A stretch of 64,000 nucleotides of DNA from contig JBMNOL010000001.1 of NCBI GenBank assembly GCA_050943055.1, positions 15,750-79,749 on the forward strand, given 5' to 3'. Position 1 is the first letter of the stretch; every line of letters starts with the position of its first letter. The DNA comes from Patescibacteria group bacterium (GTDB taxonomy: Bacteria > Patescibacteriota > Patescibacteriia > Patescibacteriales > UBA12465). The notes beneath the pieces are model-generated. The model did not search any database. It was given only the letters and a program-made list of their open reading frames with translations, and was not told the DNA's origin. A program made the position numbers and the translations under genes. Of the stretch, positions 33,663-62,822 are shown piece by piece.

Positions 33663-34199
33663 ATGGCCAGCAACTTTAATTCAACCACGACTACCGCCGC
33701 TTTTGACAAGCTGTACGCGGATTACATTGAAGCTATTTACAACTTCTTGTTTTATAAAACTTTAAACCGCGAGACGGCCGCTGATTTAACCCAAGAAGTA
33801 TTTTTAAAAGCCTGGCGGAGTTTAGAAAAAGCTCAAGTTAAAAATCCTAAGGCCTGGCTCTACACTATCAGCCGTCACACCGTAGCTGATTACTACAAAA
33901 ACTTAAAACCCCAAGCAAATATTGATGATTTTTGGGACCTGGCTGATTCTAACGACCTTTTAGAAAAACTTGATCAGAAATTAGCGGGGGAGAAAGTCGT
34001 TCAGACTTTAAAAAGTTTATCGAGCAGTGATCGCGACCTTCTAATTATGCGTTTTTGGTTGGACTTACCCTTTGCCGAAATTGCACTTCATTTAGACAAG
34101 AAAGAAGGAGCGGTTAAAATGGCTTGCGCGCGTGCCCTTAAAAAAATGCAAGCCGAGGTGCCGCTGATTTGTTTCTTACTCTTAGCGACTCAACTATGA
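33663..34199 (+). CDS. ECF-type sigma-70 family factor
   Basis: Region 2 (DLTQEVFLKAWRSL) and region 4 HTH (DRDLLIMRFWLDLPFAEIALHLDKKEGAVKMACARALKKM). Confidence 0.85.
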   Translation: MASNFNSTTTTAAFDKLYADYIEAIYNFLFYKTLNRETAADLTQEVFLKAWRSLEKAQVKNPKAWLYTISRHTVADYYKNLKPQANIDDFWDLADSNDLLEKLDQKLAGEKVVQTLKSLSSSDRDLLIMRFWLDLPFAEIALHLDKKEGAVKMACARALKKMQAEVPLICFLLLATQL

Positions 34200-35824
34200 A
34201 ATCTATGACTACAAAAAAAATAAGCCAATGGTTGGAAGAATTATATGAATTTGACCCGGGCCTAAAAGAACACGAAACGGCTTTACGCCGATTAATTCCC
34301 GAAATGATTGCCGCTAAACCTGAATCTGGTTTTAGCCCCGAATTAGCTCAAAAAATTAAAACTCGCCTCGAGCGAGACCTTAAAAAAATTAATTATAAAC
34401 CTATGCCCGAAAAAAGAATGCCTATTTGGCGGCCAATCTTAGTTTGGTCAACCGGGGTAATGGCGATGCTCTTTTTAGCCATCACCATCTACCAAGTTAT
34501 ACCTAGTAGTAATATTCAGTTAGCGACCAAAAATCCAGAAACGGGAATTAAGAAAGTGGCCGCCTCCGCTTTTGGCCCTTTAAACTCTCAAGGAGGTTCT
34601 ACTGTTGCCGATGCCCGAACCGTCGGTGGTTTAGGTGGTAACAATAATGCTGTTAGTCAAAGTGCCCCTCTAACAAAAGAATTATTGGTAACCACTTCAG
34701 AGACCCTAATAACTGCTGCTGAGCCGGTAGCAACCATGGAAGCCGATGCGCTCACCTCCTTAGATGCGGTGGGGATGGGTAGTGGCGGTTCAGAATTTAG
34801 TCAAGAAAAAATGATGATCATGCCGATTACTAATTATCGCTTTAGCTACCAAGGCGAACCTTTGGACTTAAGTAATATTAGTAATACTGTTTATAAGCGT
34901 ATCAAAGGCCAAAATGGTTTTGCTGTAGCCGGTCTACTTAGCGGTTTAAAAATTGACACCATCAATTTAAACTCTTTAACTAACCTTAAAGCAACCTACC
35001 TTTCCTTAGCTGAAGATAAGCCTTTTGGTTTAACCGCTTCTTTTGATTTTAATGAAGATTCTGTTTCTCTTTATTCAAATTGGGAGAGATGGAGAAATCC
35101 CGAGAGAGATAATTGTCAGGACGAAACCTGCTGGAACCGTTTTCGAGTTAAATATGAAGATATCCCGGAAGATTCAGTCGCTATCGCCGCTACTACAGAA
35201 TTCTTAAATAATCTCGGTGTTGATCTTAGTCATTACGGGGAACCGAGTGTCAATAATTATTGGCGCCAGTGGTACGATCAGACTGAAGATAAAGCTAATT
35301 ATTATTTCCCGGAAACAGTAAGTGTGACCTACCCCTTATTAATTGAAGGGCAAGAAGTAAGCAACTCTTCCGGTGAACCAGATGGTCTTTTGGTTAGTTA
35401 CAATATTTTAGAAAAGAGAGTTTCTGATGCGGGCGCTTTCACTCCTTATAATTACGAAGCCTCGGAATACACCACTGAAACTAACTCTGATCGTTTAATT
35501 GGCTTAGCCGAAGCTGGGGGTTGGAACCAATCCGGTTATTACTTTGATCAAGGGGCAGAAGGGGTAGAAGTGATTAATAAAGAATTAGGTTTAGGTACTC
35601 CTCGGACAGGGCTGATTCGCTTCTGGAGCTATCAGAATAATACCAGTCAGGAATTATTTGCTCCCGCTTTAATCTTCCCTGTTCTTAATGCTCCGGCCGA
35701 CTACTATGGCTCAAAAAATATTGTTGTCCCGCTAACTGAAGACCTAATCACTGAAGTAGAGGAAAGAAACAACCAATACAATAATGTCGTAAAACCAATG
35801 CCGGCAATTGACTTGGCTCGTTAA
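34196..35824 (+). CDS. putative anti-sigma factor: single-pass membrane protein with ~460-aa extracytoplasmic domain
   Basis: The ATGA start overlaps the sigma-factor stop. The track ORF began at a TTG at 34169. One TM helix lies at residues ~80-100, followed by a large Ser/Thr/Asn-rich ectodomain. Confidence 0.5.
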   Translation: MKSMTTKKISQWLEELYEFDPGLKEHETALRRLIPEMIAAKPESGFSPELAQKIKTRLERDLKKINYKPMPEKRMPIWRPILVWSTGVMAMLFLAITIYQVIPSSNIQLATKNPETGIKKVAASAFGPLNSQGGSTVADARTVGGLGGNNNAVSQSAPLTKELLVTTSETLITAAEPVATMEADALTSLDAVGMGSGGSEFSQEKMMIMPITNYRFSYQGEPLDLSNISNTVYKRIKGQNGFAVAGLLSGLKIDTINLNSLTNLKATYLSLAEDKPFGLTASFDFNEDSVSLYSNWERWRNPERDNCQDETCWNRFRVKYEDIPEDSVAIAATTEFLNNLGVDLSHYGEPSVNNYWRQWYDQTEDKANYYFPETVSVTYPLLIEGQEVSNSSGEPDGLLVSYNILEKRVSDAGAFTPYNYEASEYTTETNSDRLIGLAEAGGWNQSGYYFDQGAEGVEVINKELGLGTPRTGLIRFWSYQNNTSQELFAPALIFPVLNAPADYYGSKNIVVPLTEDLITEVEERNNQYNNVVKPMPAIDLAR

Positions 35825-40526: not shown

Positions 40527-41897
40527 ATGTTAAAAAAACCTCTTTTGCTCGCATCTTTATTAATTTTTTTTGTAGGAGCTGGTTTCGGCTGTCAAACAAA
40601 AATAGACGAAGCCACTTTAAAAGCTTCAGAGCCAATCAAAATTGTTTTTTGGCAAGCTTTTGATGATTCGGATGCTTTTTCAGAAGCAATCAAAAAGTAC
40701 CAAGAGCTACACCCCAACGTTACCATTGAATATAAAAAATTCCGTTACGAAGAGTATGAAAATCAGCTTTTAAACGCTTGGGCTGAGGACCGGGGGCCGG
40801 ATATTTTTGCCATCCATAATACTTGGGTCAAAAAATACCAACCAAAAATTACCCCCTTACCAGAATACACTTCAATTGCTTTTTTCGTAGAAAGTACGGG
40901 TTTTAAAAAAGAACTGGTTCCCGAATTAAGAAGTATTAGAAGTTTAAGCACTAGAGAACTTAAAAATAATTTTGCCGATGTTGTGGCTACAGACGCTATT
41001 TTAGAAGATGGCTTAATTTATGGCTTACCTTTATCGGTAGACACCTTAGCTCTTTATTACAATCGCGATCTACTAAATAGTGCTGGAATCGTGGAGCCGC
41101 CCCGTTACTGGAACCGAGAATTCCAGCAAGCCGTTAAAAAGATGACTAAACAGGATCCTAAAAAAGGTTTAGTCCAATCAGGAATTGCTTTAGGAACGGC
41201 GAATAATATTAATCGGGCCAGCGACATTTTGGCGGTCTTAATGCTACAAAATGGCGCCACTATAATTGATAACAATCGAGTCGTCTTTAACCAGGTCCCC
41301 CCTTATATTACTAGCGGCTACAACCCCGGACTAGAAGCCCTTCGTTTTTATACCGACTTTGCCAACCCCAACAAAGAAGTTTATTCCTGGAATGCTGACC
41401 AAGAGAATGCTTTAGATGCCTTCACTAGTGGCAATCTGGCGATGATGCTGGGCTATTCTTTTAACTTGGAGCAAATTCGCTCGCAAGCGCCAAAATTAAA
41501 CTTCGGCGTCGCCAAACTGCCGCAAATAGAGGGTAATCAGCTCCAAATAAATATGGCTAATTATTGGCTCTTAACCGTTTCTAAAAAAAGTGAACATAGT
41601 GATGTGGCCTGGGATTTTATCCAGTTTTTAACTAAAAAAGAAAACGCCGATGTTTACTTAGAAAAAACTGGTAAACCGACTGCTTTAAAAGCTAGTATTA
41701 ATGACCAGAAAAATGATGAATATCTTGGTCCTTTTGCGGAACAAGTCTTAAGCGCTAAAAGTTGGTATCGTGGCCTTAGTGCTCAGGATGCCGAAGCGGC
41801 CATGGGGGAAATGATTAAAAACGCCTTAAATCCTAATTTTAAGATAATAGACGTTTTAAATGATGGGGCGATTAAAGTTCAACAAACAATCCGCTAA
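40527..41897 (+). CDS. ABC-transporter extracellular solute-binding lipoprotein (family 1, sugar-type), orphan
   Basis: Lipobox LLASLLIFFVGAGFGC and SBP_bac_1-like fold features. No permease or ATPase genes are adjacent. Confidence 0.65.
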   Translation: MLKKPLLLASLLIFFVGAGFGCQTKIDEATLKASEPIKIVFWQAFDDSDAFSEAIKKYQELHPNVTIEYKKFRYEEYENQLLNAWAEDRGPDIFAIHNTWVKKYQPKITPLPEYTSIAFFVESTGFKKELVPELRSIRSLSTRELKNNFADVVATDAILEDGLIYGLPLSVDTLALYYNRDLLNSAGIVEPPRYWNREFQQAVKKMTKQDPKKGLVQSGIALGTANNINRASDILAVLMLQNGATIIDNNRVVFNQVPPYITSGYNPGLEALRFYTDFANPNKEVYSWNADQENALDAFTSGNLAMMLGYSFNLEQIRSQAPKLNFGVAKLPQIEGNQLQINMANYWLLTVSKKSEHSDVAWDFIQFLTKKENADVYLEKTGKPTALKASINDQKNDEYLGPFAEQVLSAKSWYRGLSAQDAEAAMGEMIKNALNPNFKIIDVLNDGAIKVQQTIR

Positions 41898-41901
41898 TTA
41901 T

Positions 41902-42300
41902 ATGAAGTTAAAAAAAATTATTCCCCCTCTTCTTTTTCTTGGTTTTATAATCGTCGGGCCAGGGCTTACTCACGCCCAAAGCTTGGTTGATACCACCGAT
42001 CCGGCTTATGCTACCGGAGGTTACACCCTAGATCATATTCGCAATTATTTAATTTATTTAATGTATTTTATTTTAGGTCTCGTAGGCACCCTCTCCTTAG
42101 CAGCTTTTGTTTATGGTGGTATTGTTTTTTTAACTTCGGCCGGCTCCGATCAGAAAGTAAAAAAAGGGAAAGACATTTTAGGAGCAGCGGTAATTGGTTT
42201 ACTAATTGTCTTTTCCAGTGTTTTAATTATTCAAACCCTATTTAATGGCTTAGGAATTAAATGGGACGCCACCAAAGGAACTCTTCCTGATATAAAATAA
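41902..42300 (+). CDS. T4SS-pilin-like (TrbC/VirB2-like, CPR 'pilin') small membrane protein
   Basis: Start moved to the ATG at 41902. Signal peptide, TM helix and the motif GGIVFLTSAGSDQKVKKGKDILGAAVIGLLIV, related to the array at 44410-46972. Confidence 0.6.
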   Translation: MKLKKIIPPLLFLGFIIVGPGLTHAQSLVDTTDPAYATGGYTLDHIRNYLIYLMYFILGLVGTLSLAAFVYGGIVFLTSAGSDQKVKKGKDILGAAVIGLLIVFSSVLIIQTLFNGLGIKWDATKGTLPDIK

Positions 42301-42306
42301 AGGGTT

Positions 42307-42969
42307 ATGGCTGAATTTACCAGAAAATCCTTAAACAATAAAAGCAGTCTAGGGACGCGCTTAAGAGAGACTCGCGAATTAAAGCAAGTAGATGTCGCTC
42401 TGGCCGCCAAAAAATTAGGCATCCGTTTAGAATATTTATTAGCCTTAGAGGAAGATCGCTTTGACCGCTTGCCGGCCGGTTTATATGGCCGCAATTATGT
42501 AAAAAAATATGGCCGCTGGTTGGGTTTTCCCAGCTCCGAAATTAATAAATGGTTGATTGAACAGGAAAAAAATGCCGGCCCGGGAGTTGATCCATTTTCT
42601 CAAAAAATTGTCGCTAAAAAAGAGTTTGCCAATTTTCCTAAACTAATCCGCAACCTTGTTCTAATTTTAATTCTTTTAGCTTTTCTGGGATACTTAGCTT
42701 TTTATCTAACCAGAATTGTTTCCGCCCCGGAATTAGTAATCTTTGAACCAGCCAATAATTTAAAAACTACCAGCACTGTTTGGGAAATTAGCGGACACAG
42801 TGAACCGGAAGCGGAAATTAGAATTAATGGCGAGGAAGTATTAAGCATGAAAAATGGCGATTTTTCTTTAGTGGTTAATTTAAAAAAGGGGCTGAACAAT
42901 ATCACTGTTAGCGCCAAAAAAAAGCATAGCAGCGAAGCTGTGGTTGAACGCCAAATTTTAGTAGAATAA
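42307..42969 (+). CDS. RodZ-like HTH/XRE membrane protein
   Basis: N-terminal HTH (LRETRELKQVDVALAAKKLGIRLEYLLALEEDRFDRLPAGLYGRNYVKKYGRWLGF), one TM helix, and a C-terminal DUF4115-like beta domain. Confidence 0.65.
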   Translation: MAEFTRKSLNNKSSLGTRLRETRELKQVDVALAAKKLGIRLEYLLALEEDRFDRLPAGLYGRNYVKKYGRWLGFPSSEINKWLIEQEKNAGPGVDPFSQKIVAKKEFANFPKLIRNLVLILILLAFLGYLAFYLTRIVSAPELVIFEPANNLKTTSTVWEISGHSEPEAEIRINGEEVLSMKNGDFSLVVNLKKGLNNITVSAKKKHSSEAVVERQILVE

Positions 42970-42985
42970 ATTAAATACTACTTAT

Positions 42986-43537
42986 ATGAGCGAACTTTCT
43001 TTTAGAAAAACTTTAGACATGGATTTGATTTTTGAAAAAATGCCAATTCAGGAGGGGCAAGTAGTCGCCGAATTAGGCTGCGGTCATTTAGGTCATTTTG
43101 TTTTCCCTCTCGCTAACCGAGTTGGCAGCACTGGTACTCTTTATGCTGTCGACATTATTCCGGAAATTTTAGATGATATTAAAAAACGCGCTCACCTGGA
43201 GAATCTACCACAAATAAAAACCATCTGGACTAACTTGGAAGTATTTAAAGGCGCCGCTATTAAATCTGGAACTGTGGAAACTGCTTTTTTAATTAATGTT
43301 TTACATCAATCCGAAAAAAAGCTGGACATTCTCCGCGAAACTGCTAGGCTACTAAAAGTAGGTGGCCACTTAGTTTTAGTTGATTGGAAGCTAGACGCCC
43401 CCAGTTTTGGCCCCCCACCTGAAAATCGCCTGGCTCCAGCCAATCTCCCCGATTTAGCCGCTAAAAGCGGTTTAGCGATCAAAGAGCAATTTGCCGCCGG
43501 TGATTATTATTATGCCTTTATTTTAAAAAAACTTTAA
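42986..43537 (+). CDS. class I SAM-dependent methyltransferase
   Basis: Motif I VAELGCGHLGHF and motif II LYAVDI. Confidence 0.6.
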   Translation: MSELSFRKTLDMDLIFEKMPIQEGQVVAELGCGHLGHFVFPLANRVGSTGTLYAVDIIPEILDDIKKRAHLENLPQIKTIWTNLEVFKGAAIKSGTVETAFLINVLHQSEKKLDILRETARLLKVGGHLVLVDWKLDAPSFGPPPENRLAPANLPDLAAKSGLAIKEQFAAGDYYYAFILKKL

Positions 43538-43543
43538 TTTTTT

Positions 43544-43930
43544 ATGTGGTCAGAATTACTCTCTCTTTCTTTTTGGTTTAATCTACGTCCCGGCAGCTTT
43601 TCCGATGTCGAGCGCTATTCTTTATTAGGCTTTATCGGCTTACTCTTAATTGTTTCAGTCATTTCCTTTATTATTAAAAAACGCGCGGGCAAAAATCGTT
43701 TTACCGCTCGCCTTTTTTATGATTTTAGCTTTACCAATGCCTTAATCGGTCTCATTCTGCTTTTCTTTAACTATGAAATAATCCCTTTTTTATCGGCTCA
43801 TTTTTGGTACTTACTGTGGCTGATAGCGATGATTTGGTGGCTTATTTCAATTATTAAAAAAATTAAGGCGGTTTCCAAGAAGCGCTCCCAGGAGCCCAAT
43901 GGTCCAGATTTAAAAAAATATCTGCCTTAA
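43544..43930 (+). CDS. small membrane protein
   Basis: 128 aa, 3-4 TM helices. A terminator lies at 43959-43985. Confidence 0.45.
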   Translation: MWSELLSLSFWFNLRPGSFSDVERYSLLGFIGLLLIVSVISFIIKKRAGKNRFTARLFYDFSFTNALIGLILLFFNYEIIPFLSAHFWYLLWLIAMIWWLISIIKKIKAVSKKRSQEPNGPDLKKYLP

Positions 43931-43985: not shown

Positions 43986-44336
43986 ATGACTAATAAAAAA
44001 ATTTTAGGTAACTGGGGCGAGGATCAGGCTTTAAAATATTTACTAAAACACGACTATCGACTTGTGGCCCGTAATTGGCGCTGCCAAAGACAAGAACTTG
44101 ATTTATTAGTAGCTACCCCCCAGCTACTGGTGGCTATTGAAGTTAAAACGAGGCGTTCTCCTTTAGCCGCCGATCAACCCCTTTTAAGCCTGGGGCAAAT
44201 TACAAGACTGCGCCGAGCCTTAAAATCTTTTTGTTTTTTGCATCATTACCCCTACCAAAAGACCCGTCTTGATCTAATCACAGTTATTGCCAACTCCAAA
44301 CAATCTTTTACTTTAAATCACTACCAAGACTTGTAA
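43986..44336 (+). CDS. yraN: YraN-family (UPF0102) endonuclease
   Basis: ILGNWGEDQALKYLLKHDYRLVARNWRCQRQELDLLVATPQLLVAIEVKTRRS. Confidence 0.8.
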   Translation: MTNKKILGNWGEDQALKYLLKHDYRLVARNWRCQRQELDLLVATPQLLVAIEVKTRRSPLAADQPLLSLGQITRLRRALKSFCFLHHYPYQKTRLDLITVIANSKQSFTLNHYQDL

Positions 44337-44343
44337 TTTTTTG

Positions 44344-44381
44344 TTGTCTTGAAGTCTGGTTTATGCTAAAATCTTAGCATA
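44344..44381 (+). promoter_or_regulatory. sigma-70 promoter with overlapping perfect palindromic operator
   Basis: -35 TTGTCT at 44344-44349, a 17-nt spacer, and an extended -10 TGcTAAAAT at 44364-44372. The palindrome TATGCTAA-aatc-TTAGCATA (44362-44381, 8-bp arms) spans the -10. An RBS GGTGGTG precedes the ATG at 44410. Confidence 0.55.
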
Positions 44382-44409
44382 ATATATAAAACTAGAAAGG
44401 TGGTGAATT

Positions 44410-44793
44410 ATGAAAAAATTGACAAAACACTTATTGTCTTTGGTGTTACTGCTCTCATTGGTAGCGATCCCAATGACAACCTTGGCGAGTGGCGGATTAA
44501 ATGTAAACGATCTCGGCGTTGATGAAATTGATAACACCTTAGATTTAGGGAGACGCAGCCCAATTGAAACTGTAACTAGATTAATTAACTCAGCTATGAT
44601 CTTCTTAGGCATCATTGCTGTCGGGATTATCTTGGTTGCTGGCTTTAAGTGGATGACAGCTGGAGGTAGTGAGGATAAGGTTAGCGAAGCTCAAAAGTTA
44701 ATGTCCTCTGGTGTTGTTGGCTTAATCATCATCTTAGCCGCTTGGGGTATTGCCTACTTCATTTTGGAAATGGCAGTTGATGTTACCCAATAA
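44410..44793 (+). CDS. T4SS-pilin-like protein, paralog 1
   Basis: Signal peptide, TM helix and the motif GFKWMTAGGSEDKVSEAQKLMSSGVVGLIIILAAWGIAYF. Confidence 0.7.
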   Translation: MKKLTKHLLSLVLLLSLVAIPMTTLASGGLNVNDLGVDEIDNTLDLGRRSPIETVTRLINSAMIFLGIIAVGIILVAGFKWMTAGGSEDKVSEAQKLMSSGVVGLIIILAAWGIAYFILEMAVDVTQ

Positions 44794-44898
44794 AAAAATT
44801 TTCAGAAATCGATTCTTGAAAAACGGTCCCTCATTTTTTTATGGGGGGTACCGCCGCGAGCCGGAAATAGTTGCGACTCGCAGCCGTAATTAGTTTTT

Positions 44899-45318
44899 AT
44901 GAAAACTTTTCGCATTTTTTTGCTACTTGCTATTTTCTCTTTTGTTGGCCTGTTTTTACCGGCGACTTCTGGAGCGACCAATAAAGGGATAGAAAAAACC
45001 TTAGAGGGTTTAAATGAGACTGTTAAGGGAGAAGGGGCGGATGGTGGAATTGGTGCCTATAAATCGCAAGTAGATGAAGATCCTCAGAATATTTTAACGA
45101 AACAAGTCACTGATATTATCTCCTTGATTCTTTCTTTTCTTGGGGTTATTTTCTTAGTCATTACTATTTATGCCGGTTTTCTCTGGATGACGGCCAACGG
45201 CAATGACACTCAAATTAAGAAAGCTAAAGATTTATTAATGAATGCTATTGTTGGTCTAGTTATTATTACCGCCGCCTACTCACTAACCGCCTTTGTCGGC
45301 AATCAGCTAACTCGTTAA
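44899..45318 (+). CDS. T4SS-pilin-like protein, paralog 2
   Basis: GFLWMTANGNDTQIKKAKDLLMNAIVGLVIITAAYSLTAF. Confidence 0.7.
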   Translation: MKTFRIFLLLAIFSFVGLFLPATSGATNKGIEKTLEGLNETVKGEGADGGIGAYKSQVDEDPQNILTKQVTDIISLILSFLGVIFLVITIYAGFLWMTANGNDTQIKKAKDLLMNAIVGLVIITAAYSLTAFVGNQLTR

Positions 45319-45319
45319 C

Positions 45320-45736
45320 ATGAAGCGCTTTATCACCACCATTCTTATTGTCAGTTCTTTATTTTTTGGCTTAAGCACCCAAGCTTCTTATAATTTTATC
45401 AGTGATAGTGGCCTAAAAAAAACTGGCGAAAATTTAGGCTATCAAACCGACCAAAACACCGACACTTTTATTGAGTCTTACATTGGTCAAATACTTACCC
45501 TTGTTTTTTCGATTTTAGGCTTAATTTTCTTTGTCTTAATTATCTATGCCGGCTTTTTGTGGATGACCGCCCAAGGTAACGATAGTAAGGTCAGTGAAGC
45601 AAAAAAGATTTTGACTAATGCGATTATTGGTTTGGTTATTGTTCTCGCCTCCTACGCTATCAGTTATTTCGTCTTTAGCGCCTTAACCCCAGCGGTGGAA
45701 ACAGCCACCGAAACGACAGCAGTGGTTGGAGAATAA
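45320..45736 (+). CDS. T4SS-pilin-like protein, paralog 3
   Basis: GFLWMTAQGNDSKVSEAKKILTNAIIGLVIVLASYAISYF. Confidence 0.7.
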   Translation: MKRFITTILIVSSLFFGLSTQASYNFISDSGLKKTGENLGYQTDQNTDTFIESYIGQILTLVFSILGLIFFVLIIYAGFLWMTAQGNDSKVSEAKKILTNAIIGLVIVLASYAISYFVFSALTPAVETATETTAVVGE

Positions 45737-45743
45737 TTATTAT

Positions 45744-46148
45744 ATGCTTAAGAATCAAAAAATTTTCACCCTTTCTCTGGCTTTGCCCCTTTTACTGAAT
45801 AGTCTTTTATTTTTAGCCCCGGCCAGCGCGACTACCACCACTACTGGCGTCAAGGGCGCTTTTTCTTCCGAAGGAAAATTAGGAGACTTTGCTAAAGATG
45901 TTGGTTATAATCAAGAACCACAAACCCCCGAATACTATGTCGGTTTGGTTATCAATATTATCTTCTCACTTTTGGGAGTTATTGCTATCACCTTAATAAT
46001 CTTTAATGGTTTTAAGTGGATGACGGCGGGCGGTAATGATAATAAAGTTAAGGAAGCCCGGGGGGGATTAACTAGCTCAATTCTCGGATTACTAATTATT
46101 TTGGCTAGTTATGCTATCACCTTTTTTGTCTTTAATATTTTTACTTAA
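45744..46148 (+). CDS. T4SS-pilin-like protein, paralog 4
   Basis: ATG at 45744; the track's TTG start at 45726 overlaps the previous gene. Motif GFKWMTAGGNDNKVKEARGGLTSSILGLLIILASYAITFF. Confidence 0.7.
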   Translation: MLKNQKIFTLSLALPLLLNSLLFLAPASATTTTTGVKGAFSSEGKLGDFAKDVGYNQEPQTPEYYVGLVINIIFSLLGVIAITLIIFNGFKWMTAGGNDNKVKEARGGLTSSILGLLIILASYAITFFVFNIFT

Positions 46149-46157
46149 AAACTGTTT

Positions 46158-46562
46158 ATGAAAAAAATTCCTTCTTGGTTAATAGTTATTTTTTTAACCA
46201 CCATCCTGATTATCCCGGGTTTAGTTTTTGCCGGTAACAATATTATTAAAGACAGTGCCTCGCCCCTAGAACGCCTTAACAATGCGGCCACCAATTATGG
46301 CCCTTTTTCTCAAACTGCTACTGAAACCTCGGCGGCCTCCATTATCGGCTTAGTAATTAATGTTATCTTGGGAATACTAGGAGTTATTTTCCTCGTTCTA
46401 ACTATTTTAGCGGGTATTCAATGGATGACGGCCGGCGGCAATGATGCCAAAGTAAAGGAAGCTCAAGGATCAATCACCAGAGCGGTTACAGGATTAGTCG
46501 TAGTTGTCTCTTCTTACGCTATCTGGCTTTTTATTCAAATGGCTTTTTTATCAAAAATATGA
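46158..46562 (+). CDS. T4SS-pilin-like protein, paralog 5
   Basis: GIQWMTAGGNDAKVKEAQGSITRAVTGLVVVVSSYAIWLF. Confidence 0.7.
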   Translation: MKKIPSWLIVIFLTTILIIPGLVFAGNNIIKDSASPLERLNNAATNYGPFSQTATETSAASIIGLVINVILGILGVIFLVLTILAGIQWMTAGGNDAKVKEAQGSITRAVTGLVVVVSSYAIWLFIQMAFLSKI

Positions 46563-46972
46563 AACATCTTTTTTATTCCTTTATTGGTACCACTCTTCTT
46601 ATTGTTCCAAGCATTGTCCTGGCCTCAACAACACCCGCCTCTGGTCTTAATACTGAAAAAATGGATGCTCAGACCCAAGCTCTTACTCAGGCAGCCGGTT
46701 TAGGACAAAACACTAGCTTAAGCTTTATTATTGCTACTCTTATTCAGGTCCTATTAGGATTTTTAGGAATAATTTTTTTAATCCTGACAATTGTTTCCGG
46801 TTTTAAATGGATGACTGCTCAAGGCAATGAAGATACAATTAAAAAAGCCCAAGGAACTTTAATGAATGCTATTATTGGCTTAGTAATTGTCCTTGCCGCT
46901 TATATTATTACCACTACTTTATTTAAATTACTGCCTTTTTCGGGCGGTAGTGGCGGCGTTACCGGCGGCTAA
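46559..46972 (+). CDS. T4SS-pilin-like protein, paralog 6
   Basis: GFKWMTAQGNEDTIKKAQGTLMNAIIGLVIVLAAYIITTT with a Gly-rich C-terminus. ATGA overlap with paralog 5. A bidirectional terminator lies at 46995-47025. Confidence 0.7.
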   Translation: MKHLFYSFIGTTLLIVPSIVLASTTPASGLNTEKMDAQTQALTQAAGLGQNTSLSFIIATLIQVLLGFLGIIFLILTIVSGFKWMTAQGNEDTIKKAQGTLMNAIIGLVIVLAAYIITTTLFKLLPFSGGSGGVTGG

Positions 46973-47029
46973 GAATAATTATTTTTTAAAAAATAAGGAC
47001 TATCTTTAGGATAGTCCTTTTTTTATTGT

Positions 47030-55237: not shown

Positions 55238-56179
55238 TTAATAAACGACTTTTGATTTCTTTATTTGATTTCTAGTTTGTAAATATTTATAAGCGGACAG
55301 TGCGGCCGTGGTCGCTTGTCCAACAGCCACCGTTATTTGTTTGTATTCGCTTTTATTGGTAACATCTCCAGCCGCGAACAAGCCAGGAGTTTTAGTTTCC
55401 ATTAAATTATTAACAACAAGCTGTAAACTATCATCACGATCAACTAAATCAGCTACAACATCAGTGTGAGCAATGCGACCAATTTCAATAAAGACACCAT
55501 CGACTGCTAACTCTTTTACTTCACCACCTGGTAATTCATAAACAATTTTTTCAACCTTACTGTCGCCGGCAATTTCTTTAACCACCGCATCGGCAATAAT
55601 AGTAATATTTTCTCGTTCTTTAACCTCAGTGATTAGAGATTCAAAAGCCTTAAAGTTTTGGTTGCGGTGCACCAGATAAACCTGGTTGGCAATTTTGGAA
55701 AGCATCTCCGCTGAATCAAAAGCGGAGTTGCCACCACCAATCACCACCACCGTTTTCCCGCGATATAAAGGGCCGTCACAATTAGCACAATAGGAAACGC
55801 CGTGCCCCATAAGCTCCACTTCTCCAGCGACCGCTAAACGGCGCGGCGATAAACCGATAGTTAAAATAACCGTCTTTGCTAAAAATTCTTCTTTATTTGT
55901 ATAAACTTTAAAAGTTTCATCGGCCATTTTTTCTAAACGCACCACTTCCGCTGTTTTGAGTTCGGCACCAAAAGAAAGCGCTTGATCGTGTAAGCGCTCA
56001 ATAAATTCAAAATTACTAATATTTTTAAAACCAGGATAGTTTTCAATTTCGGAAGCCCAAACTACCTGACCCCCTAATTGCTTACCGATAATCAAAGTTT
56101 TCATTTCTCGACGAGTTGAAAAAATAGCCGCCGTTAAACCGGCTGGACCTGAGCCAACAATTATTGTGTCGTATAACAT
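55238..56179 (-). CDS. trxB: thioredoxin-disulfide reductase
   Basis: FAD site MLYDTIIVGSGPAGLTAA, redox-active CANCDG, and NADPH site VVIGGGNSAFDSA. Confidence 0.85.
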   Translation of the reverse strand: MLYDTIIVGSGPAGLTAAIFSTRREMKTLIIGKQLGGQVVWASEIENYPGFKNISNFEFIERLHDQALSFGAELKTAEVVRLEKMADETFKVYTNKEEFLAKTVILTIGLSPRRLAVAGEVELMGHGVSYCANCDGPLYRGKTVVVIGGGNSAFDSAEMLSKIANQVYLVHRNQNFKAFESLITEVKERENITIIADAVVKEIAGDSKVEKIVYELPGGEVKELAVDGVFIEIGRIAHTDVVADLVDRDDSLQLVVNNLMETKTPGLFAAGDVTNKSEYKQITVAVGQATTAALSAYKYLQTRNQIKKSKVVY

Positions 56180-56208
56180 AAAAGGAAAAGAATTATTTCT
56201 TTAAGTTG

Positions 56209-56239
56209 AAATTATAACCTTTTTTTAATTTCTTTTCAA
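56209..56239 (-). promoter_or_regulatory. canonical sigma-70 promoter for trxB
   Basis: Minus strand: -35 TTGAAA (56234-56239), 17-nt spacer, -10 TATAAT (56209-56214), about 23 nt 5' UTR before the trxB ATG. Confidence 0.6.
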
Positions 56240-56266
56240 ATTTAAGCCTTTATTTTTATTATTTCA

Positions 56267-56298
56267 CTAATATTAGCTATTCTTACTAATATTAGCTA
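56267..56298. repeat. two direct copies of a 13-nt motif, each containing a perfect 10-bp palindrome
   Basis: CTAATATTAGCTA at 56267-56279 and 56286-56298. CTAATATTAG is its own reverse complement. The centre-to-centre distance is 19 bp, and the motifs lie 30-60 bp upstream of the trxB -35. Confidence 0.4.
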
Positions 56299-57002
56299 AA
56301 TAATAAGTGTTCTTTGAAAAACAATATGATTAGAAAAAATTTAAGAATTTAAACCTCTTAAAAAATATTTAACTTAGAGAAAATTAGTAACAAAAAACTC
56401 TTTAAAAAATAATAATTTTAAGAAAAGTTTTTAAAGAAGAATCCCTCCCTTTTTTCTAAAGCCTAATAACTAAAAAACTAACTCACTTTTAAATTTTATT
56501 TTCAACAAAAAGCTTAACTCAAATATATTGTATTTTTAAACTATCTAATTTTAACCTTTTTGAGAAAATCCTTATCTAAATATATTTTAATAAATTACAA
56601 TTCTTTTTTGGGGAATTTTTAAAATCTATACCATTTTAATTAAAAATACTTTTTATGTTCCTTAAGGAACTTGACTATTTTTTAAAAGGGTAAAAATGTC
56701 TTTAAAAAAATAAAGAGATAAGTCCAGAGTGTTGTCGACTTATCTCCTTAAAAAATATTTTCTTTATTTTTTCTTTAGATTACCTTTAATTTAAAATCAA
56801 GAGATTATCTTAACTATCACCATCACCTTAGTCTGGGCATAAATCTATTTTTTAAATCAAAAAAGGGGAAAGATCAAAAAATAAATTAAACCAAACAATT
56901 ATTTATTAAACCAAAAAAGACTCTTAATTCTTAAAACCCACCCCTTAATTACCCAAAAAACTTCAACTTTTCTAAAATTATTTGCTAATATTAATTAAAT
57001 TG

Positions 57003-57076
<74 letters not shown>

Positions 57077-57155
57077 ATTTTAAAATTTAACACGACAATC
57101 ATAACTAATTTAATAAAATTAGTAAAGACTGCCTTTGTATTTTTTACAGGATCGG

Positions 57156-57227
57156 CGTCTTCGTCAGGAATCGAACCTGAATCTAGAACTTAGGAGGTTC
57201 TTGTTCTATCCATTGAACTACGAAGAC
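57156..57227 (-). tRNA. tRNA-Arg (anticodon CCU)
   Basis: Reverse complement GTCTTCGTAGTTCAATGGATAGAACAAGAACCTCCTAAGTTCTAGATTCAGGTTCGATTCCTGACGAAGACG with discriminator G. Confidence 0.75.
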
Positions 57228-57355
57228 CAGGAATTCTTTCTTTAGTATGCTTTTTTTATTATTTTAAGTCAATTATTTTTTGACAAATGACCACCTATCG
57301 CTTAGAATTAAGTTGTTATTAATAACAACCCGCGCACGCTTGGGTTTTTAAAATT

Positions 57356-57763
57356 ATGTTTAACAAAGAAATGAAACTAGAAAAATTTAAGGATGCCGAA
57401 ACCGTTATTGGCTCGTCAGTTTTTGTTAAGGGTGACTTCCATGGCACCGGAAACATTATCATTGAAGGTAGTCTTGAAGGTAGCTTAAAAACTGATGCTG
57501 ATGTCTATATCGGCGAAAAAGCCCAAGTTACTGCTACTATTGAAGCGGCCAATGCCACTATCAACGGCCAAATTAACGGTACGGTAAAAGTTAGTCAGTA
57601 TCTAGCCTTAGGAAGCACCGCCAAAATTACTGGTGATGTTAATTTTCAAGAACTTTCTGTTGTTAGGGGTGCTCTGATTAATGGTCGCCTAAGCAGTCAT
57701 GGTGCTGGTCGCAATAAAAAAAATGCCCCCGATAAAAAAGATGTTTTAGTAGAAGACGAGTAA
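57356..57763 (+). CDS. bactofilin-family cytoskeletal protein
   Basis: DUF583 beta-helical repeats: VIGSSVFVKGDFHGTGNIIIEGSLEGSLKTDADVYIGEKAQVTATIEAANATINGQINGTVKV. Confidence 0.85.
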   Translation: MFNKEMKLEKFKDAETVIGSSVFVKGDFHGTGNIIIEGSLEGSLKTDADVYIGEKAQVTATIEAANATINGQINGTVKVSQYLALGSTAKITGDVNFQELSVVRGALINGRLSSHGAGRNKKNAPDKKDVLVEDE

Positions 57764-57786
57764 TTTATTGATTAGAAGGGGCGCTT

Positions 57787-58539
57787 ATGAACATCTATAT
57801 TTACGATGATTATTTAAATAAACCAAAATACAGCCGCATTTTAAACCGGGTTGAGATTCGTTTGACTGATTTAAATTTAAACGGAAAGATTATTCGTTTA
57901 GGAACCATTAGAAATGTCTCCGATGTTATTCAAAATGAAATAAAAAACGGTGCTAAAACTATTGTTGCGGTTGGTAATAATCAAACGGTAAGTAAGGTGA
58001 TTGGAGCGATCATTGATAATGAGCTTTACGGCTTCTTTCAAAAAAATATTCTCTTTTCTATTATTCCTATTGGTGAAGATAACTCCATTGCCGAATCTTT
58101 AGGTATTAAAGCTGGTGAAGAAGCTTGTAATATTTTACTTGCTCGTCATATCAAAAAAATTGATATCGGGATTATTAATAACTATTACTTTTTAAATAAG
58201 GTTAGTTTGCCTAGTGCTGGTGCTGTCTTAGAGTTTAAAGATAATTTTTCTTTAAGCACTAATCAAAAAGGGATAATTGAAATTTTTAATCTTCGTAGCG
58301 CCACCGGTGATGATAAAAACTTAAAAGTTAACCCGGTTGATGGTTTGTTGGATGTTTACATAAAAACTGGTAAGGGGGTTAAAGATTTAACTCGTTTAAG
58401 TACCGACAATTTAAAAATCAGCGCCGCTGGCGCTGAACTGGTTGTTGATGGGGCTCTTAGTTTACCGGCACCGGCTAACATTAGTATTGTTCGCGGCAAA
58501 TTAAATGTCGTGGTTGGTCGCGATCGTAGTTTTGATTAA
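57787..58539 (+). CDS. DAGK_cat-like (YegS/BmrU lipid-kinase fold) protein with degenerate catalytic motifs
   Basis: TIVAVGNNQTVSKVIGAI aligns to the GGDGT block with GNNQT in its place. FSIIPIGEDNSIAESLGI aligns to the P-x-GTGND block. Confidence 0.45.
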   Translation: MNIYIYDDYLNKPKYSRILNRVEIRLTDLNLNGKIIRLGTIRNVSDVIQNEIKNGAKTIVAVGNNQTVSKVIGAIIDNELYGFFQKNILFSIIPIGEDNSIAESLGIKAGEEACNILLARHIKKIDIGIINNYYFLNKVSLPSAGAVLEFKDNFSLSTNQKGIIEIFNLRSATGDDKNLKVNPVDGLLDVYIKTGKGVKDLTRLSTDNLKISAAGAELVVDGALSLPAPANISIVRGKLNVVVGRDRSFD

Positions 58540-58571
58540 AAAAAACCGAACAGTCAAGTTCGGTTTTTAAA

Positions 58572-59324
58572 TTATTTTTCTTCAGAAACAGAGACAACTA
58601 CTCCATCAATAGGGCCTTGGTCCTGTTTTTTTTGAATTAAAAATTGCTGCAGTACAGTTAAAAGGCTAAAAATGAGCCAATAAAGAGTTAGTCCGCCCGG
58701 TAAATACAAACCAAAAATAATTGTCATTATGGGGAATAAATAAGAAGATTGTTTGCTCATTATTGCCGCCATATCCTCCATTCCTGAGCTTTTAGCAGTA
58801 GCCACTGTTTTAGTCTGATTCTTTAACATCATTTTACTTTGAATAAACTGAGCTGCCCCGGCTAAAATCGCTAAAACAACAACCGGTTGACCCAAATCAA
58901 CACCAAAAGAAATTGAACTAATCTCGGCCGCCGAACCAACAAAAGAATAAACTAAATTTAAATCCTCGGTTAGGCCCACTCGTAAAGATTGGAAAATTGC
59001 ATAAATAAAAGGAAGTTGAATTAAAAGAGGTAAACAAGAGGAAAAGGGATTTATTTTATGTTTCTTATACAATTCCATGGTTGCCCGACCTAAAGCCTCT
59101 TTATTGTCAGCATATTTCTTCTTTAATTCATTTAATTCAGCTTGAACTCCCTGTATCGCCAGTTGTGATTTAGTTGATTTTTGTGACAACGGCCAAAAAA
59201 TTAATTTAACAATAGTTGTTAATAAAATAATAGCAATCCCTAGATCACCCACCTGACCATATAAAAACACTAAAAGGTTGAGAATTGGTTGATAAAAGAT
59301 AACTTGAAAAAGGTTGCCAAACAT
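58572..59324 (-). CDS. yidC: membrane protein insertase YidC (short Oxa1-type)
   Basis: QPILNLLVFLYGQVGDLGIAIILLTTIVKLIFWPLSQKS and five TM helices of the 60 kDa IMP core. Confidence 0.85.
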   Translation of the reverse strand: MFGNLFQVIFYQPILNLLVFLYGQVGDLGIAIILLTTIVKLIFWPLSQKSTKSQLAIQGVQAELNELKKKYADNKEALGRATMELYKKHKINPFSSCLPLLIQLPFIYAIFQSLRVGLTEDLNLVYSFVGSAAEISSISFGVDLGQPVVVLAILAGAAQFIQSKMMLKNQTKTVATAKSSGMEDMAAIMSKQSSYLFPIMTIIFGLYLPGGLTLYWLIFSLLTVLQQFLIQKKQDQGPIDGVVVSVSEEK

Positions 59325-59336
59325 ATGTTTTATAAA

Positions 59337-59675
59337 TTATTTTAAACCACTTTTTACTAACAAATCATTGAGATTTTTATGTAAGTCTTCGTAAGATAAG
59401 TTTTTAATTTCCGGCTTAGTAACAATAACTAGATCGTAACCTTGCTTTAAGGTTTTATTTTCCTGATAAAATATCGCCCGCAGGCGACGCTTATAAAGAT
59501 TGCGAAGAACCGCTAATTTACTTACCTTTACCCCCACCAAAATACCCACACGATTAAATCCTAAATCATTATTAAAATATTTTAAACCTAAAGAACCGCT
59601 ATAAACAGAGCGGCCTTCTTTAAAAATGGAGCTAAACTCCCGGTTTTTTGTTAATCGATTTTTTGCGGGTAACAT
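59337..59675 (-). CDS. rnpA: ribonuclease P protein component
   Basis: 112 aa. Basic RnpA pattern LTKNREFSSIFKEGRSVYSGSLGLKY...RVGILVGVKVSKLAVLRNLYKRRLR. Confidence 0.8.
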   Translation of the reverse strand: MLPAKNRLTKNREFSSIFKEGRSVYSGSLGLKYFNNDLGFNRVGILVGVKVSKLAVLRNLYKRRLRAIFYQENKTLKQGYDLVIVTKPEIKNLSYEDLHKNLNDLLVKSGLK

Positions 59676-59693
59676 CCCTATTTTTGACTATCA

Positions 59694-59831
59694 TTATTTA
59701 GTCAAACTTTCTCTTCCTTTATCGCGTCGACGTTTCAAAACAGCCCGTCCATCCTTAGTCTCCATTCTACTCATAAAACCATGTTTTGTGCTGGCTCTTT
59801 TTTTATTTGGCTGATAGGTTCTTTTTGGCAT
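59694..59831 (-). CDS. rpmH: 50S ribosomal protein L34 (not in the ORF track, 45 aa)
   Basis: Hand translation of the minus strand gives [45 protein letters not shown], which matches the L34 consensus. It lies in the classic position upstream of rnpA. Confidence 0.85.
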
Positions 59832-62775: not shown

Positions 62776-62822
62776 TAAAAAATAAAAAAAAGAACCAGCC
62801 TATTAAGCTGGTTCTTTTTTTG

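What the first reader, a model, noticed from the sequence alone, without database searches (positions are those of the whole stretch)
44344..46972. A tandem array of six diverged T4SS-pilin-like paralogs under a promoter with a palindromic operator, plus a seventh copy 2 kb upstream
All six ORFs of 127-140 aa share the same build: a signal peptide, a variable N-terminal region, a TM helix, the conserved core G(F/I)xWMTA(G/Q/N)GN(D/E)xK(V/I)xEA(K/Q)xxLxxAIxGLVIVxxAY(A/S)I, and a variable C-terminus. Genes are separated by 0-10 nt or overlap, as one operon. The N-terminal and C-terminal parts have diverged strongly while the membrane core is conserved, as expected for surface-exposed or host-interacting proteins under diversifying selection. 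A seventh family member is at 41902-42300, beside an orphan solute-binding lipoprotein. The function of this family is unknown.
Basis: partly seen in the sequence, partly recalled or inferred. Interest (0 to 1): 0.65.

Follow-up and report, generated by a model that had tools for sequence, protein, structure and literature searches.

The report
Patescibacterial VirB2-like pilin gene array
This is a real operon of six different small membrane "pilin" genes, plus a seventh nearby, of a type already described in ultra-small Patescibacteria; the new points are that each copy is individually conserved rather than fast-evolving, and that a conserved folded RNA sits between the first gene and the other five.

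Summary
The six ORFs and the seventh copy are real. All seven pass Pfam's curated threshold for PF18895 (T4SS_pilin). The genome is a Patescibacteria MAG, and NCBI already names two of these proteins "pilin". Tandem arrays of 2-11 diverged VirB2-like pilins in Patescibacteria were described in 2025. A six-pilin array is essential in Southlakia epibionticum. The finding is therefore a new member of a known kind.

- **Diversifying selection:** the 1+6 layout is strictly syntenic, with 42/42 one-to-one orthologue matches. dN/dS is 0.03-0.15 in the N-terminal regions and core, and at most 0.45 in the short C-tails.
- **Palindromic operator:** the promoter palindrome is perfect only in this genome. 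The promoter itself is conserved.

Gene 1 and gene 2 are 105 nt apart, not 0-10. This spacer holds an AT-rich palindrome and two adjacent hairpins. The hairpins covary strongly: 19 of 22 pairs show compensatory changes. They occur after the first pilin in 26 of 29 six-gene arrays and match no Rfam family. Gene 1 has the strongest Shine-Dalgarno site of 58 window genes.

Best reading: gene 1 encodes the major subunit, the other six encode minor subunits, and the RNA sets their ratio. No T4SS machinery gene lies in the window.

The parts
41902..42300 (+). g0: seventh, solitary VirB2-like pilin (132 aa). It lies 4 nt after the solute-binding lipoprotein gene and 6 nt before a RodZ-like HTH_25 membrane protein gene.
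   Evidence: PF18895 30.3 bits against a gathering score of 26.6. It is syntenic in all orthologous loci. NCBI MGI5826879.1 calls it hypothetical.
44344..44372 (+). Sigma-70-type promoter: -35 TTGTCT (44344-44349), TG (44364-44365), -10 TAAAAT (44367-44372).
   Evidence: Consensus scan. TTTGTCTTG...TGCTAAAAT is conserved upstream of g1 in most of the loci compared (about 21 of 26), whose g1 proteins are 45-99% identical.
44362..44381 (.). Palindrome TATGCTAA-aatc-TTAGCATA overlapping the -10 element.
   Evidence: Read directly from the sequence. It is perfect only in this genome and is not conserved in distant loci, so it is probably a by-product of the extended -10 element and the start-site region.
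44396..44406 (+). Extended Shine-Dalgarno sequence AAAGGTGGTGA of g1.
   Evidence: Duplex energy with a canonical anti-SD is -12.6 to -13.1 kcal/mol, the strongest of 58 genes in the window; most genes have none. AACTAGAAAGGTGGTGAA is nearly invariant across divergent loci.
44410..44793 (+). g1: first pilin (127 aa), proposed major subunit.
   Evidence: PF18895 38.2 bits. With g5 it is one of the two most conserved paralogues (72-99% identity to orthologues). NCBI MGI5826884.1 names it 'pilin'.
44799..44822 (.). H1: AT-rich inverted repeat TTTTCAGAAATCGATTCTTGAAAA in the g1-g2 spacer.
   Evidence: Invariant in seven orthologous loci although synonymous sites are saturated. It occurs once in the window. 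Variants elsewhere keep a self-complementary centre (TCGA, CCGG, TATA), and it is absent from more distant arrays.
44822..44892 (+). H2-H3: two adjacent conserved RNA hairpins. H2 spans about 44825-44852 (CCCUCAU...AUGGGGG). H3 spans about 44853-44884 and can be extended by UAC/GUA at its base.
   Evidence: Fold. RNAalifold finds compensatory changes in 19 of 22 pairs. 93.7% of cells are paired against 37-50% in slid controls, and 0 of 500 shuffles reach the observed values. Covariance model R2 hits the sense strand only, directly after the first pilin. No Rfam match.
44899..45318 (+). g2: pilin (139 aa).
   Evidence: PF18895 35.1 bits; TrbC PF04956 23.4 bits, below its threshold. No SD sequence.
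45320..45736 (+). g3: pilin (138 aa).
   Evidence: PF18895 45.5 bits. Identical to NCBI MGI5826886.1 'MAG: pilin [Patescibacteria group bacterium]'. AlphaFold2 gives a helical hairpin.
45744..46148 (+). g4: pilin (134 aa from ATG 45744; the ORF is also open from TTG 45726).
   Evidence: PF18895 28.3 bits. Orthologues are called from the ATG.
46158..46562 (+). g5: pilin (134 aa).
   Evidence: PF18895 30.1 bits. Its N-terminal region ASPLERLNNAATNYGPF is strongly conserved among orthologues.
46559..46972 (+). g6: pilin (137 aa) with a conserved Gly-rich tail LLPFSGGSGGVTGG.
   Evidence: PF18895 38.4 bits. Tail conservation is shown.
46995..47019 (.). Bidirectional intrinsic terminator closing the operon.
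   Evidence: 11-bp stem followed by a T run. The stem is invariant and the loop variable across orthologous loci.

Best explanation
The locus encodes seven non-redundant VirB2-like (PF18895) pilins of a Patescibacterium.

**Protein build and topology.** Each protein is exported by a cleavable signal peptide and sits in the membrane as a two-helix hairpin. The K-rich loop faces the cytoplasm. The paralogue-specific N-terminal segment and the C-tail face outward.

**Expression.** Six genes form one operon, driven by a conserved promoter with an extended -10 element. Gene 1 has an exceptionally strong ribosome-binding site. It is separated from genes 2-6 by a conserved structured RNA made of palindrome H1 and hairpins H2 and H3.

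**Proposed mechanism (inferred).** Gene 1 supplies the abundant major subunit. Genes 2-6 and g0 supply low-abundance specialised subunits. The intercistronic RNA sets this ratio after transcription, most likely as a processing or stabilising site; it has no U-tract and so is not a terminator. A T4SS machine encoded elsewhere extracts the hairpins from the membrane and assembles them into a pilus or conduit at the host contact.

**Shown versus inferred.**
- Shown here: family membership, layout, selection regime, and the RNA structure and its position.
- Inferred: the major/minor roles, what the RNA does, and dependence on a T4SS.
For: - **Family:** all seven proteins exceed the PF18895 gathering score. 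They also give sub-threshold hits to TrbC/VirB2 PF04956 and to NF045849, the pilin-like conjugal transfer protein of Mycoplasma ICEs.
- **Host:** NCBI labels the host a Patescibacteria MAG.
- **Hairpin:** AlphaFold2 gives two long helices with pLDDT above 90.
- **C-terminus outside:** relatives carry Ig-like Big_5 and Fib_succ_major domains after TM2.
- **Non-redundancy:** 42/42 one-to-one orthologue matches, positional order kept in distant arrays, and dN/dS of 0.03-0.15 in the N-terminal regions and core.
- **Operon signals:** the promoter and terminator are conserved.
- **Gene 1 is special:** it has the strongest SD of 58 genes in a genome that mostly lacks SD sequences. Its 5' region is nearly invariant across lineages. 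With g5 it is one of the two most conserved paralogues.
- **RNA element:** 19 of 22 pairs carry compensatory changes. 93.7% of cells are paired against 37-50% in slid controls, and no shuffle reaches the observed values. Sense-strand scores far exceed antisense scores, and every hit follows the first pilin, in 26 of 29 six-gene arrays. Three loci not used to build the model also fold into two adjacent hairpins.
- **Literature:** arrays of 2-11 VirB2-like pilins occur in 383 Patescibacteria assemblies (PMC12102498). A six-pilin array inside the T4SS cluster is essential in S. epibionticum (PMC10633639; PMC12857230).
Against: - No VirB4, VirB6, VirB3, VirB8 or coupling-protein gene occurs in the 64-kb window, in 10 kb further left, or in 3.4 kb further right. 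Linkage to a T4SS is therefore not shown for this genome.
- No solved conjugative pilin is detectable by sequence profile or by Foldseek, whose best E-value was 0.7.
- Nobody has yet seen a filament made of these proteins. The cryo-EM study of filaments from a cultured Saccharimonadia species found unrelated Ig-like Pam pili and does not mention T4SS pilins.
- The SD comparison assumes a canonical anti-SD, because the 16S gene is not in the window.
- Natural polyproteins with 2-17 fused pilin hairpins fit fixed side-by-side packing better than a large excess of one subunit.
- The single-sequence fold of the spacer is only moderately better than shuffles (z = -1.85).
Confidence: 0.55

Rival explanations
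1. The paralogues are surface variants under diversifying selection, serving antigenic variation or host-range variation. This is the first reader's view and is also speculated in the literature by analogy with Bartonella and Anaplasma VirB2 arrays.
For: Paralogues share only 18-41% identity, and the differences concentrate in the N- and C-terminal segments. PMC12102498 suggests that versatility might aid adaptation to different host strains.
Against: There is strict one-to-one orthology (42/42), and positional order is kept down to about 45% g1 identity. dN/dS for the N-terminal regions is 0.09-0.15 and never approaches 1 in any region. Paralogue-specific N-terminal motifs are conserved between species. 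Divergence lies within the range of neighbouring housekeeping genes. No gain, loss or conversion of copies is seen among seven genomes.
Confidence: 0.08
2. The seven hairpin proteins do not form a T4SS pilus. They assemble side by side into a fixed-composition membrane complex, such as a ring, pore or envelope scaffold, that works independently of a VirB4 machine.
For: No T4SS gene lies within at least 54 kb to the left or about 20 kb to the right of the array. g0 is embedded in a conserved operon with a solute-binding protein and a RodZ-like protein. Polyproteins with one signal peptide and 2-17 tandem hairpins exist. The best structural matches are generic hairpins, including ATP-synthase subunit c.
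Against: Homology points to VirB2/TrbC and to an ICE pilin-like conjugal transfer protein. In 1135 of 1948 assemblies the pilin genes lie near virB4. In S. epibionticum the array lies inside the essential T4SS cluster. The strong asymmetry of expression signals between g1 and the other genes argues against equimolar assembly.
Confidence: 0.22
3. The conserved g1-g2 spacer acts at the DNA level. H1 would be the operator of a dimeric regulator controlling an internal promoter for genes 2-6, and H2-H3 would be incidental.
For: H1 is an almost perfect dyad whose centre stays self-complementary in three sequence variants (TCGA, CCGG, TATA). Its inner mismatches are not compensated as an RNA stem would require. 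It contains a TTGAAA hexamer that resembles a -35 element.
Against: No conserved -10 element follows H1, and the promoter scan reports none there. H1 is absent from many arrays that keep H2-H3. H2-H3 covariation includes G-U pairs and is strongly strand-specific, for example 76.9 against 28.8 bits. That pattern is expected for RNA and not for DNA.
Confidence: 0.15
4. The shared motif is a compositional artefact of hydrophobic helices, and the ORFs are unrelated small membrane proteins.
For: Many weak, non-specific Pfam hits to other membrane families appear alongside the pilin hit.
Against: All seven pass a curated gathering score. Invariant Gly, Thr and Leu positions lie in register. A profile of the family finds 77,007 cluster representatives at E<=0.001 and 28,710 at E<=1e-10.
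Confidence: 0.01

Closest known systems
VirB2-like pilin arrays of Patescibacteria (Quinonero-Coronel et al. 2025, PMC12102498), including the essential six-pilin array of Southlakia epibionticum ML1 (Wang et al. 2023, PMC10633639)
   Same: Both have tandem PF18895/VirB2-like genes with very low identity between paralogues: 25% mean and 54% maximum in the paper, 18-41% here. Both have a Patescibacterial host and six genes in the main array. Both lie near the replication origin. The array here is about 13 kb from dnaA, and the Southlakia T4SS genes carry tags SEML1_0006-0019, so their nearness to the origin is inferred from the low tag numbers.
   Different: Here the array is not embedded in or next to a T4SS gene cluster. 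The lineage is labelled Parcubacteria/Patescibacteria rather than Saccharimonadia. The one-to-one orthology, the purifying selection, the special expression signals of gene 1 and the intercistronic RNA were not found in the papers read here.
Conjugative pilins VirB2 (Agrobacterium T-pilin), TrbC (RP4) and TraA (F)
   Same: All are small proteins with a long signal peptide, two hydrophobic helices and a short basic loop. The termini face outward (from my knowledge of TraA and VirB2 topology). Weak profile similarity to PF04956 is detected.
   Different: Scores are below the PF04956 threshold. No match to solved pilin structures is found by sequence or by Foldseek. There is no evidence for C-terminal processing or cyclisation. 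The host is a monoderm. There are seven paralogues rather than one.
VirB2 paralogue arrays of Bartonella and Anaplasma phagocytophilum
   Same: Both involve tandem amplification of pilin genes in a host-associated bacterium.
   Different: Those arrays are interpreted as antigenic or host-range variation. Here the copies are ancient, colinear and under purifying selection.
NF045849, the Mbov_0395 family pilin-like conjugal transfer protein of Mycoplasma ICEs
   Same: All seven proteins align over nearly the whole 80-position model, with E-values from 2e-9 to 3e-4. This family too belongs to a monoderm T4SS; that Mycoplasma ICE T4SSs are of the MPF-FATA type is from my knowledge.
   Different: Scores of 20-37 bits are below the 40-bit cut-off, so these proteins are not members of that equivalog. 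The Mycoplasma gene is a single copy on a mobile element.
Intercistronic stem-loops that set subunit ratios in fimbrial and other operons, such as papBA mRNA processing in E. coli and the puf operon hairpins of Rhodobacter (from my knowledge)
   Same: A stable RNA structure lies directly after the gene for the abundant structural subunit and before the genes for less abundant components.
   Different: Function here is untested. The element has a specific conserved two-hairpin design. Its junction bases can join either helix. It has no U-tract. In part of the clade it is preceded by an extra palindrome.

Membership tests
Pfam PF18895 T4SS_pilin | Whole-protein score at or above the curated gathering score (26.6 bits) | tested here: met
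   Scores are 38.2, 35.1, 45.5, 28.3, 30.1, 38.4 and 30.3 bits for g1-g6 and g0.
Pfam PF18895 T4SS_pilin | Small protein with a signal peptide and a two-helix hydrophobic hairpin joined by a short polar loop | tested here: met
   Sequence regions are defined. AlphaFold2 models helices 51-83 and 88-122 with pLDDT above 90.
Patescibacterial VirB2-like pilin array (PMC12102498) | Two to eleven pilin genes in tandem, or separated by one non-pilin gene, in a Patescibacteria genome | tested here: met
   Six genes lie in tandem and one lies 2.1 kb upstream. The host is labelled Patescibacteria group bacterium.
Patescibacterial VirB2-like pilin array (PMC12102498) | High divergence within the array (mean about 25%, maximum 54% identity) | tested here: met
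   Pairwise identity is 18-41%.
Patescibacterial VirB2-like pilin array (PMC12102498) | Pilin genes near virB4 (true for 1135 of 1948 assemblies, so typical but not obligatory) | tested here: not met
   No T4SS machinery domain occurs in any ORF of at least 110 aa in the window, nor in the adjoining 10 kb to the left or 3.4 kb to the right.
TrbC/VirB2 conjugative pilin (Pfam PF04956) | Score at or above the gathering score (27.9 bits) | tested here: not met
   The best score is 23.4 bits (g2). Others are 17.4 and 13.7 bits or give no hit.
TrbC/VirB2 conjugative pilin (Pfam PF04956) | Fold match to solved T-pilus or F-pilus subunits | tested here: inconclusive
TrbC/VirB2 conjugative pilin (Pfam PF04956) | Polymerises into an extracellular pilus in a VirB4-dependent way | not testable with these tools
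   This needs microscopy or genetics. No filament of these proteins has been reported in the papers read.
NCBIfam NF045849 Mbov_0395 family pilin-like conjugal transfer protein | Score at or above the 40-bit cut-off | tested here: not met
   Scores are 20.5-36.8 bits for all seven proteins. They are related but are not members of the equivalog.
Any described RNA family (Rfam 15), for the g1-g2 spacer element | Covariance-model match at or near the gathering score | tested here: not met
   No relevant hit at E<=10 in window 44300-45000, and none at E<=1 at the spacer in six divergent loci.
Intrinsic (Rho-independent) terminator, for the g1-g2 spacer element | G+C-rich hairpin directly followed by a U run | tested here: not met
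   The terminator scan reports nothing in 44794-44898. The sequence after H3 is A-rich in most loci.

The most novel reading that the evidence does not exclude
The element between the first and second pilin genes may be an undescribed, clade-wide cis-acting RNA. It consists of palindrome H1 and two covarying hairpins whose junction bases can join either helix. It would fix the ratio between one major pilin and five or six individually conserved minor pilins of the Patescibacterial T4SS filament. If so, the "pilin array" would be an ordered parts list for a hetero-oligomeric structure rather than a set of variants.
Probability: 0.35. Interest if true: 0.6.

Novelty: new member of a known kind. 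Interest (0 to 1): 0.4.

Why it matters
T4SS pilin arrays are among the few functions shown to be essential for the epibiotic life of Patescibacteria. What they build is unknown.

This locus shows that, in a large clade, the array is a fixed, colinear set of six distinct subunits plus a seventh elsewhere. All are under purifying selection. That argues against the current "variation" idea and for a defined hetero-oligomeric structure.

The unique expression signals of gene 1 and the conserved RNA after it give concrete, testable handles:
- which subunit is the major one;
- how the stoichiometry is set;
- which sequence to mutate.

As a genome annotation the finding itself is ordinary. The family is known, and the proteins are already labelled "pilin" in NCBI.

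Tried and rejected
- **PDB sequence-profile search:** it gave only spurious summed hits to designed "Pizza" beta-propeller repeats, each stretch with an i-Evalue near 87.
- **Micro-ORF MGGTAASRK inside H2-H3:** rejected, because the start codon is absent in L035, L029, L033 and L082, and the apparently synonymous changes fall in unpaired positions.
- **Internal promoter after H1:** no conserved -10 element.
- **Terminator role for H2-H3:** no U-tract.
- **Exact 20-mer of H1 in 185,579 species genomes:** only two true relatives were found, plus five chance matches inside unrelated coding regions.
- **Looking beyond the window for VirB4:** the NCBI 112.9-kb contig could not be walked. Only 10 kb to the left and 3.4 kb to the right were reachable, and they held no T4SS genes.
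- **Supplement of PMC12102498:** it does not list the related assemblies.
- **Pairing of H1 or H2 with the g1 leader:** considered from the sequences but not conserved, so dropped.
- **Pam pili preprint:** it describes an unrelated Ig-like pilus and is not relevant to this family.


Full report
**Observation**

The region holds six + strand ORFs: 44410-44793, 44899-45318, 45320-45736, 45726/45744-46148, 46158-46562 and 46559-46972. A related ORF lies at 41902-42300. All seven exceed the curated Pfam threshold for PF18895 T4SS_pilin, with 28.3-45.5 bits against 26.6. Hits to TrbC/VirB2 (PF04956) are weaker and below threshold.

A seven-way alignment shows invariant Gly, Thr and Leu positions in register and the reported WMTAxGN..K core. 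An HMM built from the seven finds no other copy in the window. A profile of 94 family members finds 77,007 cluster representatives at E<=0.001 in a library of 1.84 billion proteins. The similarity is therefore real homology and not a hydrophobic artefact.

Two details of the first description are wrong:
- Gene 1 and gene 2 are 105 nt apart. The other gaps are 1, 7, 9 and -4 nt.
- Gene 4 most likely starts at ATG 45744, as in all orthologues.

**Organism and context**

Gene 3 is 100% identical to NCBI MGI5826886.1, "MAG: pilin [Patescibacteria group bacterium]". Gene 1 is MGI5826884.1, "pilin". g0 is annotated as hypothetical.

The window is ordinary chromosome. It carries SMC, tRNA synthetases, UvrA, Lgt, ribosomal protein genes and 12 tRNAs. 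dnaA lies at 60018-61403 and dnaN at 61648-62775, with rnpA and yidC divergent from dnaA. The cumulative GC-skew minimum falls near 58-60 kb.

The array therefore lies about 13 kb from the origin, on the lagging strand. In the complete 717-kb relative AP029158.1 it lies at 701.4-704.0 kb.

No T4SS machinery domain was found in any ORF of at least 110 aa in the window. None was found in the 10 kb to the left or the 3.4 kb to the right.

**What is already known**

PMC12102498 reports 441 VirB2 arrays of 2-11 pilin genes in 383 Patescibacteria assemblies, detected with PF18895 and PF04956. Mean identity within an array is 25% and the maximum is 54%.

In Southlakia epibionticum a series of pilins inside the T4SS cluster is essential (PMC10633639). 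A 2025 review counts six "structurally conserved, but sequence-divergent" pilins there and speculates about a pilus-like conduit (PMC12857230). The role of this T4SS is described as completely unknown (PMC11665869).

The finding is therefore a further example of a described phenomenon.

**Selection and orthology**

Six orthologous loci were fetched, with gene 3 identity of 58-94% to the window copy. All have the same layout: SBP, g0, RodZ-like gene, methyltransferase, a 128-aa membrane protein gene, YraN, then g1-g6.

- Every paralogue is closest to the gene in the same position (42/42).
- Identity to orthologues is 54-99%, while identity between paralogues is 18-41%.
- Pooled Nei-Gojobori dN/dS values are listed below.

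| Region | dN/dS |
|---|---|
| Signal peptides | 0.14-0.32 |
| N-terminal "variable" regions | 0.09-0.15 |
| TM1, loop and TM2 | 0.03-0.11 |
| C-tails | 0.16-0.45 |

- Paralogue-specific N-terminal motifs and the Gly-rich tail of g6 are conserved between species.
- Divergence lies inside the range of the neighbouring genes.
- In 80 metagenomic loci found with a g1 profile, 29 have runs of exactly six tandem pilins.
- The positional order g1,g2,g3,(g4),g5,g6 persists down to about 45% g1 identity.

Paralogue-to-paralogue dN/dS cannot be used because pS averages 0.69. The array is therefore ancient, colinear and under purifying selection. The diversifying-selection reading is not supported.

**Protein architecture**

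Each protein has these parts in order:
- a signal-peptide-like N-terminus ending in a small-x-Ala site;
- a paralogue-specific segment of 24-43 aa;
- TM1, a 16-residue K-rich loop, and TM2;
- a tail of 3-18 aa.

AlphaFold2 with a 94-sequence alignment gives two long helices (51-83 and 88-122) with pLDDT above 90. The N-terminal segment has low confidence.

Relatives of 870-1100 aa carry Ig-like Big_5 and Fib_succ_major domains after TM2. This places the C-terminus outside the cell and, by the positive-inside rule, the loop in the cytoplasm. From my knowledge this is the same membrane topology as TraA and VirB2.

No solved pilin is detectable by sequence or by Foldseek. All seven proteins give sub-threshold hits to NF045849, a pilin-like conjugal transfer protein of Mycoplasma ICEs. 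That is a link to monoderm T4SSs worth noting.

**Expression signals**

The promoter-like site at 44344-44372 is conserved as TTTGTCTTG...TGCTAAAAT in most of the divergent loci compared. The leader AACTAGAAAGGTGGTGAA-N2-ATG is nearly invariant.

With a canonical anti-SD, g1 has the strongest predicted SD of 58 window genes (-12.6 kcal/mol, next best -9.1). Most genes, including g2, g3, g5, g6 and g0, have essentially none.

It decays without compensation elsewhere.

**The g1-g2 spacer**

This 100-113-nt spacer is far more conserved than synonymous sites. A 24-mer, TTTTCAGAAATCGATTCTTGAAAA, is invariant in seven genomes and occurs once in the window.

Independent minimum-free-energy folds of 29 spacers give the same layout: an AT-rich palindrome (H1) followed by two adjacent hairpins (H2 and H3). 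In more distant arrays only H2 and H3 are present.

On 27 diverse H2-H3 sequences:
- 19 of 22 predicted pairs show compensatory double changes;
- 93.7% of cells are paired, against 37-50% when partners are slid;
- 121 cells carry double changes, against 11-44 in the slid controls;
- no shuffle out of 500 reaches the observed values.

A covariance model of H2-H3 was searched over 663 kb. Its only sense-strand hits at E<1e-3 lie directly after the first pilin of a run. Two weaker hits (E = 0.03 and 0.24) fall between later pilins of two arrays. Antisense mirror hits score much lower.
- Hits occur in 26 of 29 six-gene arrays.
- They include three lineages that were not used to build the model.

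The four or five bases at the H2/H3 junction (UCAC or UUAC) are complementary both to the 5' end of H2 and to the 3' end of H3. All three segments covary. This leaves open a small alternative-pairing switch.

There is no Rfam match, no U-tract and no conserved internal promoter. H1 keeps a self-complementary centre in three sequence variants, and its inner mismatches are not compensated. H1 may therefore act as DNA rather than RNA. This remains unresolved.

**Interpretation**

The most economical reading is that g1 is the abundant major subunit. It has a strong, conserved promoter, leader and SD. With g5 it is one of the two most conserved proteins of the set, and it is followed by a stable RNA structure. 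Genes g2-g6 and g0 would then be low-abundance, non-redundant subunits. The spacer RNA would set the ratio after transcription.

Dependence on a T4SS machine is inferred from homology and from other Patescibacteria. It is not shown for this genome.

The main rival is a T4SS-independent membrane complex of fixed composition. Two observations favour it: no T4SS genes lie nearby, and natural polyproteins exist with one signal peptide and 2-17 fused pilin hairpins.

**Verdict**

Three points add value:
- the refutation of diversifying selection;
- the deep positional orthology;
- the conserved intercistronic RNA, together with the singular expression signals of gene 1.

I found none of these three in the papers I read.

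Noticed in passing
window 11156-14167 (+): A 1003-aa protein with two T2SSE (PilB/PilT-type) ATPase domains fused in one polypeptide (749 bits, two stretches). It is preceded by a 356-aa ORF with no Pfam match. It probably belongs to a type IV pilus system rather than a T4SS.
   Followed up: no
window 56000-64000: Replication-origin region: rnpA and yidC on the - strand, dnaA at 60018-61403 and dnaN at 61648-62775. G+C falls to about 0.30-0.33 and the cumulative GC skew turns near 58-60 kb. The pilin operon lies about 13 kb away and is transcribed head-on to replication.
   Followed up: partly
whole window (58 genes): Almost no gene has a Shine-Dalgarno sequence. g1 is the clear exception (-12.6 kcal/mol against a next best of -9.1). 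The comparison assumes a canonical anti-SD, because the 16S gene is outside the window.
   Followed up: partly
L056:3989-6676, L072:3992-7297, L067:3899-6595, L074:3157-5766: Proteins of 870-1100 aa with an N-terminal PF18895 pilin hairpin followed by Ig-like Big_5 domains and, in one case, a Fib_succ_major domain. These are pilin hairpins used as anchors for large surface domains.
   Followed up: partly
P0132, P0134, P0143 (six repeats); P0136 (8); P0170 (17); P0242 (11): Single polypeptides with one signal peptide and 2-17 tandem pilin hairpins without internal signal peptides. These are natural fusions of the unit that is encoded as separate genes in this window.
   Followed up: partly
window 40527-43930: g0 sits in a tightly packed, conserved gene string with gaps of 4-16 nt: solute-binding lipoprotein, g0, RodZ-like HTH_25 protein with a Glucodextran_B-like domain, methyltransferase, and a 128-aa membrane protein. 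This suggests co-expression of the solitary pilin with envelope functions.
   Followed up: no
L015 = CAYLPC010000001.1; L012 = CAZSWP010000004.1: The public record carrying a syntenic Patescibacterial pilin locus is titled 'uncultured Gammaproteobacteria bacterium'. This is probably a mislabelled MAG.
   Followed up: no
window 202-277 (+): ARAGORN calls a tRNA-Ile with anticodon UAU, an uncommon way for bacteria to read AUA.
   Followed up: no
window 347-1688 and 33663-35824: Two ECF-type sigma factor genes are present. Each is followed by a gene with no confident Pfam match (255 aa, membrane-like; 551 aa), possibly encoding anti-sigma partners.
   Followed up: no
window 44822-44892 and homologous spacers: The junction bases of H2/H3 (UCAC or UUAC) can pair either with the 5' end of H2 or with the 3' end of H3, and all three segments covary. 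In one lineage (L027) H2 is literally CCUCCUU paired with AAGGAGG. The meaning is unknown.
   Followed up: partly
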